Numbered from the stretch's first letter, positions 13,837 through 63,664 are shown. The stretch is DNA of 64,000 bases from Dehalococcoidia bacterium (GCA_965237745.1 OZ250156.1:95596-159595), one strand, 5' to 3'. A program made the numbers and translations. The notes: generated by a model from the letters alone, not told the origin.

Positions 13837-14808
13837 CTAGGCGGTGAGTGCCAGTTCCAGTTGCCCGGCGCGATGCTTGGCGACGGTGCGCCGGCGCGGT
13901 GGCTCTTGGGCCAGGCTGAGTTCAAGTTGCCCCCGAATGGGCTTCGGAGCAGGGTCTCTTTGCCTACGGTCCAGGCCCCAGCGCCGCCGCTCGCGGTCGA
14001 CGATGGACAGCACGCTCTTGGTGTATTCCTCCGGGGCGTAGGTCTTGCGGTACAGCTTGGCGTAACCTCGCTCCAAGTGCGGGTAGGTCTCCCGCAGCAT
14101 GGGCATGAACCACTCCTTGGAGCCGGGTTTCAGGAACAGCACGTTGGAACCCAGGAACTGCGCGCCGTGATCGTGGGCGGCAGCGGCCACCGCCGCGATG
14201 TTCTCCTCGTGGTCGCTGATGCCCGGAAGCAGAGGCGCCATCATCACGCCGGCGTTTATGCCGTTCTCGACCAGGTGCTGCATCGCGTCCAAGCGGGCCT
14301 GCGGGCTGGGCGCGCCCGGCTCCGTGAGCTTCCATACCTCCTCGTCCACTGTGCCAATGCTGAAGTTGACACTGACCTCGGCAATCTCGCTCAACCGGCC
14401 CAGCAGGTCCGCATCACGCTTCACAAGCACTCCCTTGGTGGTTATGGAAGCCGGATTGGAGAAGTCGATCAGCACCTGCAAAACGCCGCGTGTCAGCTGA
14501 TATTCAGCCTCTGCTGGTTCGTAGGGGTCCGATGCGGTGCCGATGGCGATTGATTCGCCCCGCCAACTGGGGCGTTTCAGCTCTTGGCGCAGCACCTGCG
14601 GGGCGTTGACCTTGGCGAATACCCGCTGCTCAAAGTCTCGCCCGGCGTCCATACCCCAGAACTCGTGGGTGGGCCTGGCGTAGCAGTAGCTGCAGGCGTG
14701 GCGGCATCCCCGGTAGGGATTGAGCGTCCACCGGAAGGGGAAGGACGGGATGTCCAACCGGTTGAGGAGAGTCTTGCAGTGAATTTCCGTTACTTGAGCG
14801 CCTGCCAT
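13837..14808 (-). CDS. radical SAM protein, SplB-like (COG1533 DNA repair photolyase family)
   Basis: 323-aa ORF with NPYRGCRHACSYCYARP (CxxxCxxC) near the N-terminus. Confidence 0.75.
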   Translation of the reverse strand: MAGAQVTEIHCKTLLNRLDIPSFPFRWTLNPYRGCRHACSYCYARPTHEFWGMDAGRDFEQRVFAKVNAPQVLRQELKRPSWRGESIAIGTASDPYEPAEAEYQLTRGVLQVLIDFSNPASITTKGVLVKRDADLLGRLSEIAEVSVNFSIGTVDEEVWKLTEPGAPSPQARLDAMQHLVENGINAGVMMAPLLPGISDHEENIAAVAAAAHDHGAQFLGSNVLFLKPGSKEWFMPMLRETYPHLERGYAKLYRKTYAPEEYTKSVLSIVDRERRRWGLDRRQRDPAPKPIRGQLELSLAQEPPRRRTVAKHRAGQLELALTA

Positions 14809-14831
14809 GCTATTACCTCTTGGAAACTGGT

Positions 14832-14849
14832 GTTCGGAATATATGTTCT
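14832..14849 (-). promoter_or_regulatory. Cheo-box-like operator AGAACATATATTCCGAAC
   Basis: Immediately downstream of the -10 hexamer of the radical SAM gene. Nearly identical to the motif at 31817-31835. Matches GAAC-N4-GTTC with one G-to-A change. Confidence 0.5.
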
Positions 14850-14850
14850 T

Positions 14851-14879
14851 ATAATAGGAGACATAAACCAGCGTGTCAA
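14851..14879 (-). promoter_or_regulatory. sigma70-like promoter of the SplB-like gene
   Basis: Minus strand: TTGACA (14879-14874), 17 nt, TATTAT (14856-14851). Confidence 0.55.
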
Positions 14880-14947
14880 GTTGCCTGTGTCAGCAGGTAA
14901 CGTTTGGTTTAAGGCGGACGGGTTCGAGAACATCACCTTCCCGTGGC

Positions 14948-33857: not shown

Positions 33858-33957
33858 CCCCTCTCGGACACCCGCAAAAGCTAGCCCGAAAAACTAACCT
33901 GGTCCCTACGTCAATTTACCCCATCCCTCTGCGCATTTCACTTTGGCTTTGGTTTAG
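32704..33957 (-). mobile_element. IS630-family insertion sequence
   Basis: 28-bp imperfect terminal inverted repeats CTAAACCAAAGCCAAGGTGGGATGTGCA (32704-32731) and TGCGCATTTCACTTTGGCTTTGGTTTAG (33930-33957), 24/28 matching. TA is present at both junctions. Encodes HTH plus DDE_3 transposase. Confidence 0.85.
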
Positions 33958-40516: not shown

Positions 40517-41485
40517 ATGACCAACCGCACGGCTTCCGACAGCGGCGCGCCCCTACCCCAGTTCGCCTTTTTCCGAGGCGAAGTGGTGCCCTTGGAGGAC
40601 GCCCGTGTGAGTGTTATGACCCATGCCCTCCACTACGGCACCGCCGTTTTCGAGGGCATCCGAGGCAACTGGAACGCAGAGCACGAAAGCACCTACATCT
40701 TCCGCCTCCGCGAGCATTACGAGCGTCTCAAGCTGGGATGCCGCATGCTCATGCTGGACATACCCTACAGCGTGGACGACCTCTGCAAGATCACCGTCGA
40801 GCTGGTGGAGAAGAACGGCAACCGCTCCGATGTCTACATCCGGCCCCTCGCCTACAAGAGCGAGGAACTGGTGGCGAACCTCAAGCTGCACGAGATTGCC
40901 AGCGACTTCACCCTAATTGTCGTTCCCTTCGGCAACTACCTCGGCACCGAGAACCTGCGCTGCTGCACCTCTTCTTGGCGCCGCCTCGAAGACCAGATGA
41001 CCCCCACCCAGATCAAGACCTCGGCCAACTACCTGAACAGCATCCTGGCCAAGACCGAGTCGGTGCTGGCCGGGTTCGACGAAGCCATCCTGCTCAACCA
41101 GGACGGACACGTCTCCGAGGGATCGGGCGAGAACCTGTTCATGATGCGAAAGGGCAAGCTGATCACCCCCATCCTGGAGGATAATCCGTTGCCCGGAATC
41201 ACCCGCGATACAGTAATGGAACTGGCCCGCGAAGACCTTGGGATCGAGGTGGTGGAGCGCCGCATCGACCGCACCGAGCTTTACTTGGCCGACGAGGTGT
41301 TCCTCAGCGGGACCGCTGCCCATCTGACTCCCGTGATCTCGCTGGACAGCCGTCCCATCGCCGACGGCAATCCCGGCCCGGTGTCCACGGCGCTGAAGAA
41401 GATGTACTTCGACATCGTGTTCGGCCGCAACCCCAAGTACCTGCACTGGTGCACCGCCGCCGTTCCCAACATGGTCGCGGCCTAG
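40517..41485 (+). CDS. ilvE: branched-chain amino acid aminotransferase
   Basis: 322-aa class IV aminotransferase pattern (HALHYGTAVFEGIRG..., ANYLNSILAKTE, EGSGENLF). Confidence 0.85.
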   Translation: MTNRTASDSGAPLPQFAFFRGEVVPLEDARVSVMTHALHYGTAVFEGIRGNWNAEHESTYIFRLREHYERLKLGCRMLMLDIPYSVDDLCKITVELVEKNGNRSDVYIRPLAYKSEELVANLKLHEIASDFTLIVVPFGNYLGTENLRCCTSSWRRLEDQMTPTQIKTSANYLNSILAKTESVLAGFDEAILLNQDGHVSEGSGENLFMMRKGKLITPILEDNPLPGITRDTVMELAREDLGIEVVERRIDRTELYLADEVFLSGTAAHLTPVISLDSRPIADGNPGPVSTALKKMYFDIVFGRNPKYLHWCTAAVPNMVAA

Positions 41486-41574
41486 AACGCTCCTGCTTCG
41501 AATGCTCACTCGCTGCCCAAAGACCGAAGCGCCATCAACCTCGTTTCCGGTTGGTGTCCAAGTGGTCAGAAATT

Positions 41575-42057
41575 ATGACGACTGAGCAGAGGGCCCGGAA
41601 GATAGAGTCCTACGGCAGTGGCTACGAACAGCTGGTCAGCGCATTGGACAATTTCCCATGGGAGATGTGGACCTTCAGGGACGAACACGGCTGCTGGAGC
41701 ATCTACGAGCACTTAATCCACATCGCCGACAGCGAAGCCAACAGCTACATCAGGTGCAGACGGCTGATTGCCGAACCGGGCAAGTCCCTGATGGCCTACG
41801 ACGAAAACCAGTGGGCAAATGAACTCGCCTATCACCATCAGGACATAACGGACACCCTGGAGCTCTTCAGATGGCTCCGCCGCAAGACCTTTGCATTGAT
41901 CAAAGAACTGCCCGAAGCAACATGGCGGCAATCGGCCTACCATCCCGAAAATGGAAATATGACCCTCGACGACTGGCTCGACGTATACGAGAGCCACGTT
42001 CCTGAGCACCTGCAGTTCATGCAGGAGAACTACGCTGCTTGGTCGCTCCGCGCCTGA
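41575..42057 (+). CDS. DinB family protein (DinB_2 four-helix bundle)
   Basis: 160 aa. WSIYEHLIHIADSE ... YESHVPEHLQ contains the His triad typical of DinB/YfiT-like proteins. Confidence 0.65.
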   Translation: MTTEQRARKIESYGSGYEQLVSALDNFPWEMWTFRDEHGCWSIYEHLIHIADSEANSYIRCRRLIAEPGKSLMAYDENQWANELAYHHQDITDTLELFRWLRRKTFALIKELPEATWRQSAYHPENGNMTLDDWLDVYESHVPEHLQFMQENYAAWSLRA

Positions 42058-57861: not shown

Positions 57862-58418
57862 ATTGGGATGACTCTCAAATGGAGTTGGCCCGTCTGGCTA
57901 TTTTCAGAAATTCCGCATTGGCAATTGGCGCCCCGACAGAACGCCCGCGGAGTCGCGTCAGCGCCTGCGCCGTCAGTCCCGAGCCTGCCGAAGGATAGTC
58001 CCGGACCTGTCAAGGTACGTGCGCCGGAATCCGTTCGTTGATGGGTTCGTGGCGTTCGTGGATCGGGGGGCTGACCCGAACGGACTCCCAAGAACTTTGC
58101 AATGGTCCTGCCTGCGCCCAGGGCCCCAGGGTCTTCCGGTTGTTACCCACAGCGCAGCGAAGAACATCTACTTCCGGGGGACACCCTTCGCCCCACTCAG
58201 GCCGCAATTTCCTGACACTTTCCCCTTGCCGGGCCCCATGACACCCTCCTACCAAATCTTCAGTAAGGCCCAGAGCATTCCGCCCAACCCGGCCAAGTTA
58301 TCCGCCAGTTGGCCGAAAATGTCCGGAGAATCAAAATTTTAGCCACCCGGCTTTGCACAATAAATGTTTTTTTAATCTGATTTGTTGTGCAGGATCTTTT
58401 GTAATTCAGCCTCCGGGT

Positions 58419-59024
58419 TCAGGCGGGGATATCAATGACTCGGGTGTTTCTTCCTTCCGCCTCTTGGACCAGTGCCGGGCGAGGGTCGAGGGTGGCGATC
58501 ACTGGGGTGACGCCTTCGCCGGTGGCGGTTTGGAGGATTTCGGAGCGCCGCACGGCGCGGGAAATGTCGTCTCGGTTGGGTCCCAGGGAGATTTCCACGA
58601 CCGCGTGGCGGCGGTTCTGTCCGTAGACGATGAGGTCGGCCTGTAAGAGGTCCCTGAACTCCTCCCGGGAGATGAGACCGGACTGGACTGCTGCTTGGAG
58701 TGCTTGATTGAAGTTGGGATGGGCTGTGTCAAACTTGGAGAAGGCTGCTCTCGGGCCCTCGATTCCCAGTTCTACGCTGGCGAGTTGGACGGCGGTGCGG
58801 GCCGCGTTTTCTTCGTACTGGTTGCCTTCGATGTTGCCCAACCGGCCTTCCACACGGTTCATCCGTGTCTTCAGCTCATCCATGTCCGTCCTGAGCAGGA
58901 GAAACTGGGTGGGGAGTTGCAGGAGCTCCTCAGTGAGGATGTGCGTTCTGAGTTGGTTCCTCAGATCAGGGTTTTGCTCCAAGGCACTCAGTATGTCCTG
59001 TAAGGAGTTGACCGGCATTGTCAT
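58419..59024 (-). CDS. hypothetical protein: coiled-coil N-terminus plus possible PD-(D/E)xK-like C-terminal domain
   Basis: 201-aa ORF. LLRTDMDELKTRMNRVEGRLGNIEG, then ADLIVYGQNRRHAVVEISL...DISRAVRRSEIL. Family name not recalled with certainty. Confidence 0.45.
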   Translation of the reverse strand: MTMPVNSLQDILSALEQNPDLRNQLRTHILTEELLQLPTQFLLLRTDMDELKTRMNRVEGRLGNIEGNQYEENAARTAVQLASVELGIEGPRAAFSKFDTAHPNFNQALQAAVQSGLISREEFRDLLQADLIVYGQNRRHAVVEISLGPNRDDISRAVRRSEILQTATGEGVTPVIATLDPRPALVQEAEGRNTRVIDIPA

Positions 59025-60991: not shown

Positions 60992-62410
60992 ATGGCTGAC
61001 CAGGACATTGCATTGGTAGCTCACCTGATGCGCCGCGCCGGTTTCGGGGCGAGCCGGGATGAGATTGAGGCCAAAGCAGCGCAGGGCTACGACAACGTAG
61101 TACAGGAGCTGCTCAATCCCACCGGCGGCATCGACGACGACATATTGATGCGCTACAACCCGTCGTATTACGAACCCGGCGCCATCGAAGTCAATACCCA
61201 GATCTGGGTATACAAGATGATCAACAGCCCCAACCAGTTGCAGGAAAAGGTCGCGCTGTTCTGGCACATGATTTTCTGCGCCGGCCACAGCAAGATCGAC
61301 TCCGGTCAGGAAATGGGCATCATGGTCAACATGTTCCGGGAGCAAGGTATGGGCAGCTTCCGTGACCTGCTGGTCGCGCTGTCCACCAACCCCGGCATGA
61401 TGTACTACCTGGACAACACCGAGTCCCACAAGGCCAACCTCAACGAGAACTATGGCCGTGAGCTCCTCGAGCTCTTCTCCCTCGGCGTCGGCATGGACGA
61501 GGGCTTCAACTACTCCGAGGACGACGTAAAGGTCTGCGCCCGCGCCTTCACCGGCTGGAACGTGGCCCCGTCCTACCCGCCCTTCCCCCATGGCCGCAGC
61601 CCCTGGGTCTTCCGCTTCGACCCTGCTGACCACGACAACAGCGAAAAGACCTTCCTGGGTGAGACCGGCCATTGGAATGGCGATGACATCATCGACATCA
61701 TCTGCAAGCAGCCGGCCACCGCCCGCTTCCTCGCCCGCCACCTGTACAACTACTTCGTGGCCGACGAGCCGCAGATCCCCGCTTGGCGTCTGACCCCGCC
61801 GCGGAACATCGAGGCGATCGAGACTCTCGAGAAGGCCTACTTCGATTCCAACTACTCCATCAAGGCCATGCTCGAGGCCCTGTTCACCTCCGAGTTCTTC
61901 AAGGACGAGTCGGTCCACTACCAGAAGATCAAGAACCCGGCTGAGATGGTCGTCAGCCTGCTCCGAATGGTCGGCGAGCACCAGGATCTCAAGCCCGGCC
62001 TGTTCGAGATTTCCCAGGAGCCCAAGTACATGGGCCAGGACCTGATGAACCCGCCCACGGTGGAGGGTTGGCATACCGGCCGCGAGTGGATCGACAGCGG
62101 CACGTTGGTGGAGCGGATCAACTTCGCCGCCGAGTTGCTGGGTAACACCGAGCTTGACGGCGTCCGCGGCCTGGTCGACCGGCTGATGGCCCGCGGCGAC
62201 AGCCTGACTCCGGAGCAGTTCGTGGACGGCTGTCTGGACATGACCGGCCCGGTGCAGGTCACTTCCGACACCCATTCCCAGTTGGTCGCTCACGCCTCCC
62301 AGGAAGGCAACCTCAGCCACGGCAACGACGATGAGCGCGTCACCTTCACCCGCCGCACCGGCGAAATGTTCCAGATGATCGCCGCCACGGCCGAGTTCCA
62401 GTTCGAGTAA
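60992..62410 (+). CDS. DUF1800 domain protein, cassette B
   Basis: 472-aa paralogue of 27349-28773 (MADQDIALVAHLMRRAGFGAS...), alignable end to end. Confidence 0.75.
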   Translation: MADQDIALVAHLMRRAGFGASRDEIEAKAAQGYDNVVQELLNPTGGIDDDILMRYNPSYYEPGAIEVNTQIWVYKMINSPNQLQEKVALFWHMIFCAGHSKIDSGQEMGIMVNMFREQGMGSFRDLLVALSTNPGMMYYLDNTESHKANLNENYGRELLELFSLGVGMDEGFNYSEDDVKVCARAFTGWNVAPSYPPFPHGRSPWVFRFDPADHDNSEKTFLGETGHWNGDDIIDIICKQPATARFLARHLYNYFVADEPQIPAWRLTPPRNIEAIETLEKAYFDSNYSIKAMLEALFTSEFFKDESVHYQKIKNPAEMVVSLLRMVGEHQDLKPGLFEISQEPKYMGQDLMNPPTVEGWHTGREWIDSGTLVERINFAAELLGNTELDGVRGLVDRLMARGDSLTPEQFVDGCLDMTGPVQVTSDTHSQLVAHASQEGNLSHGNDDERVTFTRRTGEMFQMIAATAEFQFE

Positions 62411-62427
62411 ACCTGTTTCCAATAAGT

Positions 62428-62468
62428 CCAATCGCTCTTCCTGAGCCTGTCGAAGGAAGAGCGATTGG
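62428..62468. repeat. intercistronic hairpin (14-bp perfect stem, 13-nt loop), variant of the dispersed palindromic repeat
   Basis: CCAATCGCTCTTCC, TGAGCCTGTCGAA, GGAAGAGCGATTGG. It starts 18 nt after the DUF1800 stop. Confidence 0.8.
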
Positions 62469-62524
62469 GCGGTCAGTCAAGCCAACAGCAAACACGCAAA
62501 TCACAACGCTAGAAGGAGTGACAA

Positions 62525-63664
62525 ATGGTATCGACCGCGAAAGATCCTGTCCTGGCAGTCCTCTCTCTGTCGGGCGGCAACGACGGCCTGAACACCGTCA
62601 TCCCCCGCAATAGCTCGCTCTACCGGGACTTCCGCCCCACCATCGGTGTGCCGGAAGACCAGATCCTGCCCATCAACGACGAGTTGGGTTTCCACCCGAC
62701 CATGTCTCCCCTAATGAAGTATTGGGAAGCAGGACAGCTGGCAGTATTCGTGGGCATCGGCTACCCGACTCCCAGCTACTCCCACTTCCGCTCCATGGAC
62801 ATCTGGCACACTTGTGAGCCCGAAATCATCGGCACCGAGGGCTGGCTGGGCCGCGCCGCCAAGCTGATGGACCCCACCGCCGAGAACGTGCTGACCTCCG
62901 TCAACTTCGGTCGCGGCCTGCCTCGCGCCTTGGTGATGGAAGGCGTCCCCGTCGCCTCCGTCGGTAACCTCGAGACCTACGGTCTGCTCACCGGCATCGA
63001 CGGCGAAGACCAGCGCAACTCCGCTCTGGACGTCTTCGGCCGCATGTACTCGCCCGCCATCGGCTCCGGCGCCGTAATGGACTACATCCACTCCACCGGC
63101 ACCGACGCTCTCAAGGGCGCCGACATCCTGTCCACCGCGCCGGACAACTACACCTCCAACGTCGAGTACTCCAACACCGTCATCGGCCAGTACATGAAGA
63201 ACATCGCCCAGACCCACCTGGCCAATTTCGGCACCCGCGTGCTCTATACCACGTCGCCCTACAACGGCTTTGACTCCCACGCCAACCAGGCGCAGGCCAA
63301 CGCCGCCCTGTGGACCGACGTCTCCAACACCGTCGACACTTTCTTCACCGACCTGCGTGACCACGACGCCAGCGACAACGTAACCCTGTTGCTGTTCAGT
63401 GAGTTCGGCCGCCGCGTCAACGACAACGGCTCCGGCACCGACCACGGCGCTGCCAGCGTGGCCTTCGCTGTCGGCGAGCACGTCAAGGGCGGCATCTACG
63501 GCAGCTACCCGTCCCTGACTCCCGCCGAACAGGAAGAGGGCGGCAACCTGAAGTTCAACTTGGACTTCCGCTCCGTCTACTCCACCATCCTGGAAGACTG
63601 GTTCAACCTCGAGGCTGAACCCATCGTCAATGGCAACTTCGAGCGCGTCAAGTTCTTGAAGTAG
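62525..63664 (+). CDS. DUF1501 domain protein, cassette B
   Basis: 379-aa paralogue of 26103-27239. AGGAG RBS. No twin-arginine signal. Confidence 0.75.
   Translation: MVSTAKDPVLAVLSLSGGNDGLNTVIPRNSSLYRDFRPTIGVPEDQILPINDELGFHPTMSPLMKYWEAGQLAVFVGIGYPTPSYSHFRSMDIWHTCEPEIIGTEGWLGRAAKLMDPTAENVLTSVNFGRGLPRALVMEGVPVASVGNLETYGLLTGIDGEDQRNSALDVFGRMYSPAIGSGAVMDYIHSTGTDALKGADILSTAPDNYTSNVEYSNTVIGQYMKNIAQTHLANFGTRVLYTTSPYNGFDSHANQAQANAALWTDVSNTVDTFFTDLRDHDASDNVTLLLFSEFGRRVNDNGSGTDHGAASVAFAVGEHVKGGIYGSYPSLTPAEQEEGGNLKFNLDFRSVYSTILEDWFNLEAEPIVNGNFERVKFLK

What the first reader, a model, noticed from the sequence alone, without database searches (positions are those of the whole stretch)
14832..14879. Shared Cheo-box-like operator over two promoters: SplB-like radical SAM gene and the zinc-ribbon/RuvC-like operon
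AGAACATATATTCCGAAC (minus strand, 14849-14832) lies directly after the -10 of a TTGACA-17-TATTAT promoter for the COG1533 radical SAM gene. AGAACATATATTCTGTTAC (31817-31835) fills the spacer of a TTGAAT-17-TACATT promoter for the zinc-ribbon plus RuvC-like pair. The two share 13 identical nucleotides (AGAACATATATTC). The core GAAC-ATAT-ATTC is the Gram-positive-type LexA box GAAC-N4-GTTC with one G-to-A change. Both sit at repressor-type positions, in the same orientation relative to the gene, and both downstream genes are DNA-repair-related. This suggests a small SOS-like regulon.
Basis: partly seen in the sequence, partly recalled or inferred. Interest (0 to 1): 0.55.

Follow-up and report, generated by a model that had tools for sequence, protein, structure and literature searches.

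The report
Conserved LexA-type SOS operators, two promoters
Two promoters in this uncultured marine or sponge Chloroflexi (Dehalococcoidia/SAR202-type) genome carry the same short palindromic repressor site, which matches the known binding site of the DNA-damage repressor LexA and is kept in about 80 related species; this is an ordinary kind of regulation, with one target operon not described before.

Summary
AGAACATATATTC occurs exactly twice in the window, at 14837-14849 (-) and 31817-31829 (+), each inside a core promoter.

Phylogenetic footprinting makes it an operator. All 80 orthologous loci of the radical SAM gene (66-89% aa identity, Dehalococcoidia/SAR202 MAGs) keep TTGAC-17-TAnnAT followed at once by AGAACAnATGTTy.

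A weight matrix built from those ortholog sites scores the second window site highest (21 bits). It finds almost nothing else in 64 kb of window plus 569 kb of related loci. The Zn-ribbon/RuvC-like operon keeps the box in the -35/-10 spacer in homologues only 44-54% identical.

The motif fits the Gram-positive/Chloroflexi LexA box GAAC-N4-GTTC. Four Chloroflexota-type lexA promoters, picked without knowledge of their DNA, all carry perfect boxes in the same two registers. The radical SAM protein belongs to the Rv2578c family, a ChIP-seq-proven LexA target in M. tuberculosis.

The lexA gene of this genome was not found, so LexA as the binder is inferred. The RuvC-like protein has the RuvC fold but lacks two catalytic acids.

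Verdict: new member of a known kind, of modest interest.

The parts
14874..14879 (-). -35 hexamer TTGACA of the radical SAM gene promoter
   Evidence: Promoter scan, 11/12 match. TTGAC is conserved in about 80 orthologous promoters.
14851..14856 (-). -10 hexamer TATTAT
   Evidence: TAnnAT is conserved at 1.8-2.0 bits in the ortholog alignment.
14836..14849 (-). LexA-type box 1, AGAACATATATTCC. It starts 1 nt after the -10 and so covers the expected transcription start.
   Evidence: Exact 13-mer shared with site 2. PWM score 20.7 bits. A box is present at this position in all 80 orthologous loci.
14823..14836 (-). LexA-type box 2, CGAACACCAGTTTC, in tandem with box 1 (centres 13 bp apart).
   Evidence: PWM score 11.8 bits. 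About 23 of the 32 closest orthologs have a second GAAC-N4-(G/A)TT(T/C) box 13-14 bp downstream, with a variable N4, e.g. L003 CGAACAAATGTTTA-AGAACAAATGTTTG.
13837..14808 (-). Radical SAM gene, Rv2578c/COG1533 family ('SplB-like'), 323 aa, monocistronic
   Evidence: Pfam Radical_SAM E 8e-16. NCBIfam NF038135 Rv2578c family E 1.3e-94. CxxxCxxC motif CRHACSYC.
31810..31815 (+). -35-like hexamer TTGAAT of the Zn-ribbon/RuvC-like operon
   Evidence: Homologous loci have TTGTAT, TTGTAA and TTGAAA at the same distance from the box.
31817..31830 (+). LexA-type box AGAACATATATTCT, filling the 17-nt spacer
   Evidence: Top PWM hit in the window, 21.2 and 20.9 bits on the two strands. Identical 14-mer in L082 and L083; GGTACAAATGTTCT in L084 and L086.
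31833..31838 (+). -10-like hexamer TACATT
   Evidence: TATCTT, TAACTT, TAATGT and TAATTT sit in the same register in homologues. The consensus scan does not call it.
31891..32103 (+). Small zinc-ribbon protein gene (70 aa, CxxC...CxxC); GTG start
   Evidence: Conserved and always directly upstream of the RuvC-like gene in L081-L086. No Pfam, NCBIfam, PHROG or PDB match.
32106..32666 (+). RuvC-like protein gene (186 aa from GTG 32106). Its start lies 2 nt after the Zn-ribbon stop.
   Evidence: Pfam RuvC 25.8 bits (gathering cut-off 22.2). PDB RuvC by profile, E 8.8e-6. AF2 model pLDDT 83, with bacterial RuvC as top fold hits, TM about 0.8. The equivalents of catalytic D7 and E66 are replaced.

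Best explanation
Both sites are operators for the SOS repressor LexA of a Dehalococcoidia/SAR202-type Chloroflexota bacterium. Its binding motif is the Gram-positive type palindrome (A/C)GAAC-RNRY-GTTy.

At the radical SAM (Rv2578c-family) gene, two tandem boxes start 1 nt after the -10 and cover the transcription start and the early transcribed region. Bound LexA dimers would block open-complex formation or promoter escape there. At the Zn-ribbon/RuvC-like operon, a single box fills the -35/-10 spacer, so bound LexA would exclude RNA polymerase.

After DNA damage, RecA-stimulated self-cleavage of LexA would derepress both units.

What is shown: the sequence, its position and its deep conservation; the specificity of the motif; the same motif in the same registers at lexA promoters of related bacteria; and the family identity of the targets.

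What is inferred: that LexA is the binding protein in this organism, that the sites repress, and that the genes are damage-inducible.
For: 1. Footprint at the radical SAM gene. In 80 orthologous loci from different species (66-89% aa identity) the promoter and a box directly after the -10 are kept. Information content is 1.3-2.4 bits per column in the box, against 0.5 or less in most flanking columns. The consensus is TTGAC-N-TAnnAT-T-AGAACAnATGTT.
2. Motif centre. Of 47 distinct ortholog boxes, 36 have the full RNRY centre of the refined Gram-positive LexA box. GAAC is nearly invariant (G 47/47, second A 46/47, C 42/47).
3. Specificity. A PWM built from those sites puts the unrelated second promoter at the top of the window, at 21.2 bits. 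Shuffled windows have a mean maximum of 14.7. In 569 kb of related loci the only hits of 15 bits or more outside radical SAM promoters are the RuvC-like operon promoters and one orphan site.
4. Footprint at the second operon. Homologues only 44-54% identical keep the box inside the spacer. TAGAACATATATTCT is identical in L082 and L083; L084 and L086 have TGGTACAAATGTTCT.
5. lexA promoters. Four Chloroflexota-type LexA genes chosen by protein sequence alone (L327, L330, L335, L336; GC 0.60-0.64) all have perfect GAAC-N4-GTTC boxes. They sit either in the spacer (TTGACA-n-box-nn-TAnAAT) or directly after the -10; L335 has both. The chance of a perfect box is about 0.0014 per 120 nt. In L277 and L235 the spacer boxes were also not required by the search pattern.
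6. Literature.
- GAAC-N4-GTTC is the LexA box of B. subtilis and M. tuberculosis (PMC3323433, PMC3381160).
- GAACnnnnGTTT and GAACnnnnnTTC variants are used as LexA operators in Clostridium (PMC4234289).
- Rv2578c/Rv2579 is a ChIP-seq LexA site with RecA-dependent induction, and ruvC is LexA-regulated in M. tuberculosis.
- COG1533 'SplB' is a recurrent SOS regulon member in several phyla.
- From my own knowledge: Dehalococcoides LexA binds GAAC-N4-GTTC (Fernandez de Henestrosa et al. 2002, J Bacteriol 184:6073). I could not retrieve that paper.
Against: - No lexA gene was found in the window or in any held Dehalococcoidia locus. The lexA of this clade was never reached. Autoregulation in the same genome, and even the presence of LexA there, is therefore untested.
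- The four 'blind' LexA loci have no established taxonomy. Their nearest named relatives are Anaerolineae and Chloroflexi MAGs.
- Both window boxes have ATTC rather than GTTC in the right half-site. Box 2 scores only 11.8 bits.
- The site 2 promoter matches the sigma-70 consensus poorly, 8 of 12.
- The window holds no canonical SOS genes (recA, uvrA and so on), so the regulon cannot be cross-checked.
- The PWM training set includes L006, whose box is identical to the window's. This is a slight circularity for site 1, though not for site 2.
Confidence: 0.8

Rival explanations
1. The palindrome is bound by a different, non-LexA repressor specific to this lineage, for example an XRE-, MarR- or PadR-type protein. 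That protein happens to recognise a GAAC-N4-GTTC-like site and controls a small private regulon.
For: - No lexA was seen in this genome.
- The sites deviate from the perfect box (ATTC and GTTT half-sites).
- Only two units are seen in 64 kb.
Against: - The motif matches the LexA consensus in half-sites, spacing and RNRY centre.
- The same motif sits in the same promoter registers at four of four blind-picked Chloroflexota-type lexA genes.
- The radical SAM family is a proven or recurrent LexA target elsewhere.
Confidence: 0.1
2. The small zinc-ribbon protein encoded just downstream of site 2 is itself the DNA-binding repressor. It would autoregulate its own operon and cross-regulate the radical SAM gene.
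For: - It is a Zn-ribbon protein of unknown function, always first in the operon, with the most strongly conserved operator directly upstream.
- It matches no known family.
Against: - A search of 5.8 billion proteins for homologues of its partner, the RuvC-like protein, which is always encoded next to it, found only 7 clusters. The radical SAM operator, by contrast, is conserved in at least 80 species and 137 matched loci. The regulator must be far more widespread than this operon. The Zn-ribbon protein itself was not searched for.
- The lexA promoters carry the same motif.
Confidence: 0.05
3. There is no repressor site. The shared AT-rich 13-mer is a chance match, or a promoter-intrinsic element such as a discriminator, initially transcribed sequence or spacer.
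For: - AT-rich sequence is expected in promoters of a 61% GC genome.
- The loose GAAC-N4-GTTC core is not enriched in the window.
Against: - The exact 13-mer is expected about 3e-4 times more by composition. The observed count exceeds all 100 shuffles.
- The two sites sit in different promoter registers (after the -10, and inside the spacer), so they cannot be the same promoter element.
- A palindromic half-site pattern with a variable N4 is conserved across 80 species.
Confidence: 0.03

Closest known systems
Gram-positive type LexA operator (Cheo box, GAAC-N4-GTTC; B. subtilis DinR/LexA, M. tuberculosis TCGAAC-N4-GTTCGA, Clostridium GAAC-N4-GTTT/TTC variants; reported for Dehalococcoides)
   Same: Same half-sites, same 4-nt spacer and the same purine/pyrimidine pattern in the centre. 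The sites overlap the core promoter, and tandem boxes occur (PMC3323433, PMC3381160, PMC4234289).
   Different: The flanks here prefer T-AGAAC...GTTCT-A rather than CGAAC...GTTCG. Both window sites carry ATTC in one half-site. Binding by the cognate LexA is not shown.
M. tuberculosis Rv2578c/Rv2579 LexA site (ChIP-seq peak 20, RecA-dependent induction)
   Same: The regulated gene belongs to the same radical SAM family (NF038135, E 1.3e-94). The operator is of the same motif class.
   Different: The phylum differs (Chloroflexota versus Actinomycetota). The protein scores below the equivalog cut-off (317 versus 430 bits). Here two tandem boxes lie directly after the -10.
SOS-regulated 'splB' (COG1533) in Alpha- and Betaproteobacteria, Verrucomicrobia and Bacteroidetes
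   Same: The same COG sits under LexA control across clades whose LexA motifs differ. That argues the gene is a genuine SOS function (PMC3323433, PMC8565304, PMC3765255).
   Different: Those clades use other LexA motifs. None of the papers read here covers Dehalococcoidia or SAR202.
LexA-regulated ruvC (M. tuberculosis ruvCAB)
   Same: A RuvC-fold gene lies behind a LexA box.
   Different: The protein here is a rare paralogue, with 7 clusters found. It is not followed by ruvAB, is paired with a Zn-ribbon protein, and lacks the equivalents of catalytic D7 and E66.

Membership tests
LexA (SOS) operator, GAAC-N4-GTTC type | Palindromic half-sites GAAC/GTTC separated by 4 nt, with an RNRY centre | tested here: met
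   Window sites are GAAC-ATAT-ATTC (twice) and GAAC-ACCA-GTTT, each with one half-site mismatch. Of 47 distinct ortholog boxes, 36 have the full RNRY centre.
LexA (SOS) operator, GAAC-N4-GTTC type | Overlaps or abuts the core promoter of the regulated gene (repressor position) | tested here: met
   Site 1 starts 1 nt after the -10. Site 2 lies within the 17-nt spacer. Both registers are conserved in orthologs.
LexA (SOS) operator, GAAC-N4-GTTC type | Conserved upstream of orthologous genes while the surrounding non-coding DNA drifts | tested here: met
   80 of 80 radical SAM loci keep it, and 5 of 5 RuvC-like loci that include upstream DNA keep it.
LexA (SOS) operator, GAAC-N4-GTTC type | The same motif upstream of lexA itself (autoregulation) and of core SOS genes in the same genome | not testable with these tools
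As a proxy, 4 of 4 blind-picked Chloroflexota-type lexA promoters carry perfect boxes in the same registers.
LexA (SOS) operator, GAAC-N4-GTTC type | Bound by LexA; the target is induced by DNA damage in a RecA-dependent way | not testable with these tools
   This needs EMSA or ChIP and expression data, and the organism is uncultured.
Rv2578c-family radical SAM protein (COG1533, 'SplB-like') | Radical SAM CxxxCxxC cluster motif and full-length match to the family model | tested here: inconclusive
   CRHACSYC is present. NF038135 gives E 1.3e-94 and 316.8 bits over positions 36-316 of 317, but this is below the equivalog cut-off of 430.
Spore photoproduct lyase (SplB proper, TIGR04070) | Match to the SP lyase equivalog model | tested here: not met
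   15.4 bits against a cut-off of 400. 'SplB-like' is only a superfamily-level label.
RuvC Holliday junction resolvase | RuvC (RNase H-like) fold and Pfam PF02075 match | tested here: met
   PF02075 at 25.8 bits, above the gathering cut-off of 22.2. PDB RuvC profile hit, E 8.8e-6. AF2 model pLDDT 83, with the top 12 fold hits all bacterial RuvC (TM normalised to target 0.73-0.83).
RuvC Holliday junction resolvase | Catalytic acidic tetrad (E. coli D7, E66, D138/H, D141) | tested here: not met
   The GIDPG Asp is R, Y, T or A in the family. By my reading of the alignments, the IEQ Glu aligns to an invariant Ser. Only C-terminal Glu residues (EWEA) remain. The protein also falls below the NCBIfam RuvC equivalog cut-off, 22.7 against 163 bits.

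The most novel reading that the evidence does not exclude
The Zn-ribbon plus catalytically degenerate RuvC-fold pair is a previously undescribed, lineage-restricted SOS-induced module of SAR202-type Chloroflexota. It would be a non-cleaving junction-binding or regulatory factor, or an accessory, possibly mobile cassette that sits beside tRNA genes and IS hot spots. Its operator is kept identical (TAGAACATATATTCT) across lineages whose proteins are only about 45-50% identical, which would imply tightly tuned LexA control.
Probability: 0.3. Interest if true: 0.5.

Novelty: new member of a known kind. Interest (0 to 1): 0.3.

Why it matters
It gives a clean footprint for the SOS operator in an abundant, uncultured marine and sponge-associated lineage (SAR202/Dehalococcoidia), supported by about 80 species. 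It extends the known LexA control of the Rv2578c/COG1533 radical SAM family to another phylum. That strengthens the case that this still uncharacterised enzyme has a real role in the DNA-damage response.

It also flags a rare Zn-ribbon/RuvC-fold gene pair as a candidate new SOS function. The derived weight matrix and the two promoter registers can be used directly to map the SOS regulon in the many complete Dehalococcoidia MAG chromosomes now available.

None of this changes the current understanding of how SOS regulation works.

Tried and rejected
- Exact-protein look-up of the window's radical SAM protein: not on record.
- Search for lexA in the window and in 86 related loci with tblastn and an HMM built from E. 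coli and B. subtilis LexA: nothing found.
- Protein search with B. subtilis LexA: returned only Bacillus. This search was wasted.
- Composite DNA pattern (box + N{85,115} + GYPPxxREI codons) on metagenome contigs: returned 120 lexA loci.
- LexA profile built from the loci I guessed were Dehalococcoidia-like: the named hits were Anaerolineae or generic Chloroflexi, not SAR202.
- Matching 'longest_contig' values or source names to the contigs, to tie a LexA to the same genomes: the cluster look-up gave no organism names and no matching lengths.
- The Dehalococcoides LexA paper could not be retrieved.
- Weak PWM hits in the window, rejected as operators because of poor half-sites and scores within the shuffle range: 58357-58370 (15.8 bits, in an AT-rich intergenic stretch), 23779, 24499, 48292, 63748.
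- Alternative -10 (TATATT) inside the site 2 box: rejected, because there is no -35 at the right distance and the element is absent from the L084 and L086 boxes.
- PHROG, NCBIfam, Pfam and PDB sequence searches for the Zn-ribbon protein: no match.

Full report
**Observation.** The reported sequences are present as described.

- Site 1, minus strand: TTGACA (14879-14874), 17 nt, TATTAT (14856-14851), one A, then AGAACATATATTCC (14849-14836).
- Site 2, plus strand: TTGAAT (31810-31815), T, AGAACATATATTCT (31817-31830), GT, TACATT (31833-31838).

The 13-mer AGAACATATATTC occurs exactly twice. With up to two mismatches, 3 matches are found, the third being the palindromic self-match of site 2. Shuffles give 0.31 on average, and none of 100 reaches 3. 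The flanks are unrelated, so this is not a duplicated segment.

The bare core GAAC-N4-GTTC with one mismatch is not enriched in the window (25 found, 23.4 expected). The case cannot rest on the core alone.

The promoter of site 1 is called by the consensus scan at 11 of 12 matches. That of site 2 matches only 8 of 12 and is not called.

**Context.** The window is about 61% GC and is ordinary chromosomal DNA. It carries hemD, a sulfite/nitrite reductase, selB, phoU, dnaB, L9, comEA/comEC, a hopanoid cluster, two tRNAs and IS elements. No canonical SOS gene is in it.

- The gene behind site 1 (13837-14808, minus strand) is a radical SAM protein with a CxxxCxxC motif. Its best family is the Rv2578c family (NF038135, E 1.3e-94). 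It is not a spore photoproduct lyase proper (TIGR04070, 15 bits).
- Behind site 2 lie a 70-aa zinc-ribbon ORF (31891-32103) and, 2 nt after its stop, a 186-aa RuvC-like ORF (32106-32666).

**Footprinting, site 1.** One scan of species-representative genomes with the radical SAM protein returned 80 loci, 66-89% identical. All are Dehalococcoidia, SAR202 or Chloroflexota MAGs, which places the window in that lineage.

Every locus keeps a TTGAC-17-TAnnAT promoter. Starting one base after the -10, every locus also keeps a box whose consensus is AGAACAnATGTTy. Column information is 1.3-2.4 bits inside the box, against about 0-0.5 bits in most of the surrounding non-coding columns.

Among 47 distinct boxes:
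- G2 is invariant, A4 is 46/47 and C5 is 42/47.
- Positions 6, 8 and 9 are R, R and Y in 45, 41 and 41 cases.

This is the RNRY centre of the refined Gram-positive LexA consensus (that comparison rests on my own knowledge).

In about 23 of the 32 closest relatives a second GAAC-N4-(G/A)TT(T/C) box follows 13-14 bp downstream, with a freely varying N4. The window has it too: CGAACACCAGTTTC at 14836-14823.

**Specificity and site 2.** A weight matrix built from the ortholog boxes was used to scan the window.

- Site 2 ranks first, at 21.2 and 20.9 bits on the two strands. Site 1 box 1 scores 20.7.
- One doubtful AT-rich intergenic hit scores 15.8 (58357-58370).
- Box 2 scores 11.8.
- Mononucleotide shuffles give a mean maximum of 14.7.

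In 569 kb of related loci, the only hits of 15 bits or more outside the radical SAM promoters are the promoters of the RuvC-like operon and one orphan site in L011.

The RuvC-like protein has only 7 homologous clusters in the 5.8-billion-protein index. In each of their five contigs that include DNA upstream of the Zn-ribbon gene, the box sits inside the spacer of the promoter in front of that gene:
- L082: TTGTAT-TAGAACATATATTCTTT-TATCTT
- L083: TTGTAA-TAGAACATATATTCTGT-TAACTT
- L084 and L086: TTGAAA-TGGTACAAATGTTCTGT-TAATGT / TAATTT

The proteins are 44-54% identical, yet the 14-mer box is identical in three lineages.

**Who binds it.** I could not reach the lexA gene of this lineage.

- It is not in the window or in the held loci.
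- The protein searches led to Bacillus or to Anaerolineae.

Indirect evidence is nevertheless strong.

First, a composite DNA pattern was run on metagenome contigs: the box, a gap of 85-115 nt, then the codons for GYPPxxREI. It retrieved 120 lexA loci. There the box is present by construction. In the Chloroflexi-type subset, however, it sits precisely in the spacer (cTTGACAt-AGAACnnnTGTTCn-nn-TATAAT). L277, L214 and L235 also have spacer boxes that the pattern did not require.

Second, an exhaustive phmmer search with one such LexA (P0143) gave 150 representatives. I picked four by amino-acid composition alone and fetched their DNA. All four have perfect GAAC-N4-GTTC boxes in the core promoter:
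- L327: TTGACA-C-CGAACGGATGTTCG-TT-TATAAT
- L330: TTGACA-T-CGAACGCTTGTTCT-GA-TAAAAT
- L335: TTGACA-A-AGAACAAATGTTCC-TG-TACAAT-AGAACCGTTGTTCT (both registers in one promoter)
- L336: TACAAT-AGAACAGATGTTCG

A perfect box is expected about 0.0014 times per 120 nt at this composition. The two registers, in the spacer and directly after the -10, are exactly those of window site 2 and window site 1.

Third, the literature.
- GAAC-N4-GTTC is the LexA box of B. subtilis and M. tuberculosis (PMC3323433; PMC3381160).
- GAAC-N4-GTTT and GAAC-N5-TTC variants are treated as LexA operators in Clostridium (PMC4234289).
- The Rv2578c/Rv2579 intergenic region is a ChIP-seq LexA peak with RecA-dependent induction, and ruvC is LexA-regulated in M. 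tuberculosis.
- COG1533 'SplB' is a recurrent SOS gene in Alpha- and Betaproteobacteria, Verrucomicrobia and Bacteroidetes.
- That Dehalococcoides LexA binds this motif is my recollection of Fernandez de Henestrosa et al. 2002. I could not retrieve the paper.

**Mechanism.** The most likely mechanism is classical SOS repression.

- At the radical SAM gene, two LexA dimers on tandem boxes cover roughly +1 to +21, directly after the -10.
- At the Zn-ribbon/RuvC-like operon, one dimer sits between the -35 and the -10.
- In both cases repression would be relieved by RecA-stimulated LexA self-cleavage.

Shown here are position, conservation, motif class and the parallel with lexA promoters. Inferred are binding, repression and inducibility in this organism.

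The recurrent G-to-A in the distal half-site (ATTC) is conserved at site 2 in three lineages. It may tune operator strength. That is speculation.

**The second target.** The RuvC-like protein matches Pfam RuvC just above threshold. As a family profile it matches PDB RuvC proteins end to end. Its AlphaFold model (pLDDT 83, pTM 0.82) matches bacterial RuvC structures best, with TM about 0.8.

The Asp of GIDPG (E. coli D7) is R, Y, T or A in the family. By my reading of the alignments, the Glu of IEQ (E66) aligns to an invariant Ser. The protein is therefore probably not a conventional resolvase. That is an inference.

The Zn-ribbon partner has no detectable relatives of known function. The pair is rare. 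In the window it lies next to tRNA-Pro and tRNA-Arg. In two 98.7%-identical strains, two different IS elements sit at the same point just after it. This is the only part of the finding that is not already textbook.

**Comparison and verdict.** The operators work like, and by sequence belong to, the Gram-positive type LexA box. Membership is met for motif, position and conservation. It is unmet only for features that need the full genome or experiments.

LexA control of the Rv2578c/COG1533 family is already known in other phyla. Here it is extended to SAR202-type Dehalococcoidia, with an unusually deep footprint.

I rate the finding as real and correctly interpreted: a new member of a known kind. 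Confidence that LexA is the regulator is about 0.8, and interest is about 0.3. The Zn-ribbon/RuvC-fold pair remains a modest lead as a candidate new SOS module.

Noticed in passing
window 32707-33954; L081 3467-5054: Two strains 98.7% identical in the flanks carry different IS elements at the same point just 3' of the RuvC-like gene. The window has an IS630-type element (DDE_3 + HTH_33, ORF 32704-33816, minus strand). L081 has an IS5-type element (DDE_Tnp_1 + DUF4096). This looks like an insertion hot spot.
   Followed up: partly
L082 3614-4496; L083 1163-2048; L084 4185-5073; L085 1218-2106: In the more distant loci the Zn-ribbon/RuvC-like pair is followed by a very conserved, overlapping pair of unknown proteins (82-94% aa identity). 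One begins MPVVQRPYVPPEDQTP... (122-125 aa); the other begins MPD... (171-176 aa). The only family hit is a weak match to phrog_7919. The pair is absent from the window.
   Followed up: partly
window 14874-14898 (-) and the same position in many of L001-L080: A second TGACA lies about 13 nt upstream of the -35 TTGACA of the radical SAM promoter (window: TGACAC-N7-TTGACAC). It is inside a hairpin-like inverted repeat (14880-14901). It could be an upstream terminator stem, an alternative -35 or another factor's site.
   Followed up: no
L011 2467-2480: An orphan near-perfect box, AGAATATATATTCT (18.7 bits), lies in non-coding DNA about 530 bp upstream of the radical SAM gene. No convincing ORF is next to it.
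   Followed up: partly
window 58300-58420: An AT-rich intergenic stretch holds a weak matrix hit, ACAATAAATGTTTT (58357-58370, 15.8 bits). It has a poor first half-site and is probably not an operator.
   Followed up: partly
window 31369-31552 (-): tRNA-Pro(TGG) and tRNA-Arg(CCG) lie directly upstream of the site 2 promoter. In other genomes the operon sits next to pheST or proS instead. The operon therefore looks like an accessory cassette that has moved.
   Followed up: no
window 26103-28773 (-) and 60992-63664 (+): Two copies of a DUF1800 + DUF1501 gene pair occur in one 64-kb window.
   Followed up: no
window 41449-42057 (+): A DinB_2/DinB-superfamily protein, a family named after a damage-inducible B. 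subtilis gene, has no LexA-type box upstream.
   Followed up: no
Some contigs carry several copies, e.g. L097 with three within 850 bp. These are presumably LexA-controlled phage promoters.
   Followed up: no
L235 and L330 lexA promoters: Two related lexA promoters share a further conserved element, AGCACAAATGAACGA, downstream of the -10, in addition to the spacer box. It resembles a degenerate half-palindrome of the LexA box.
   Followed up: no
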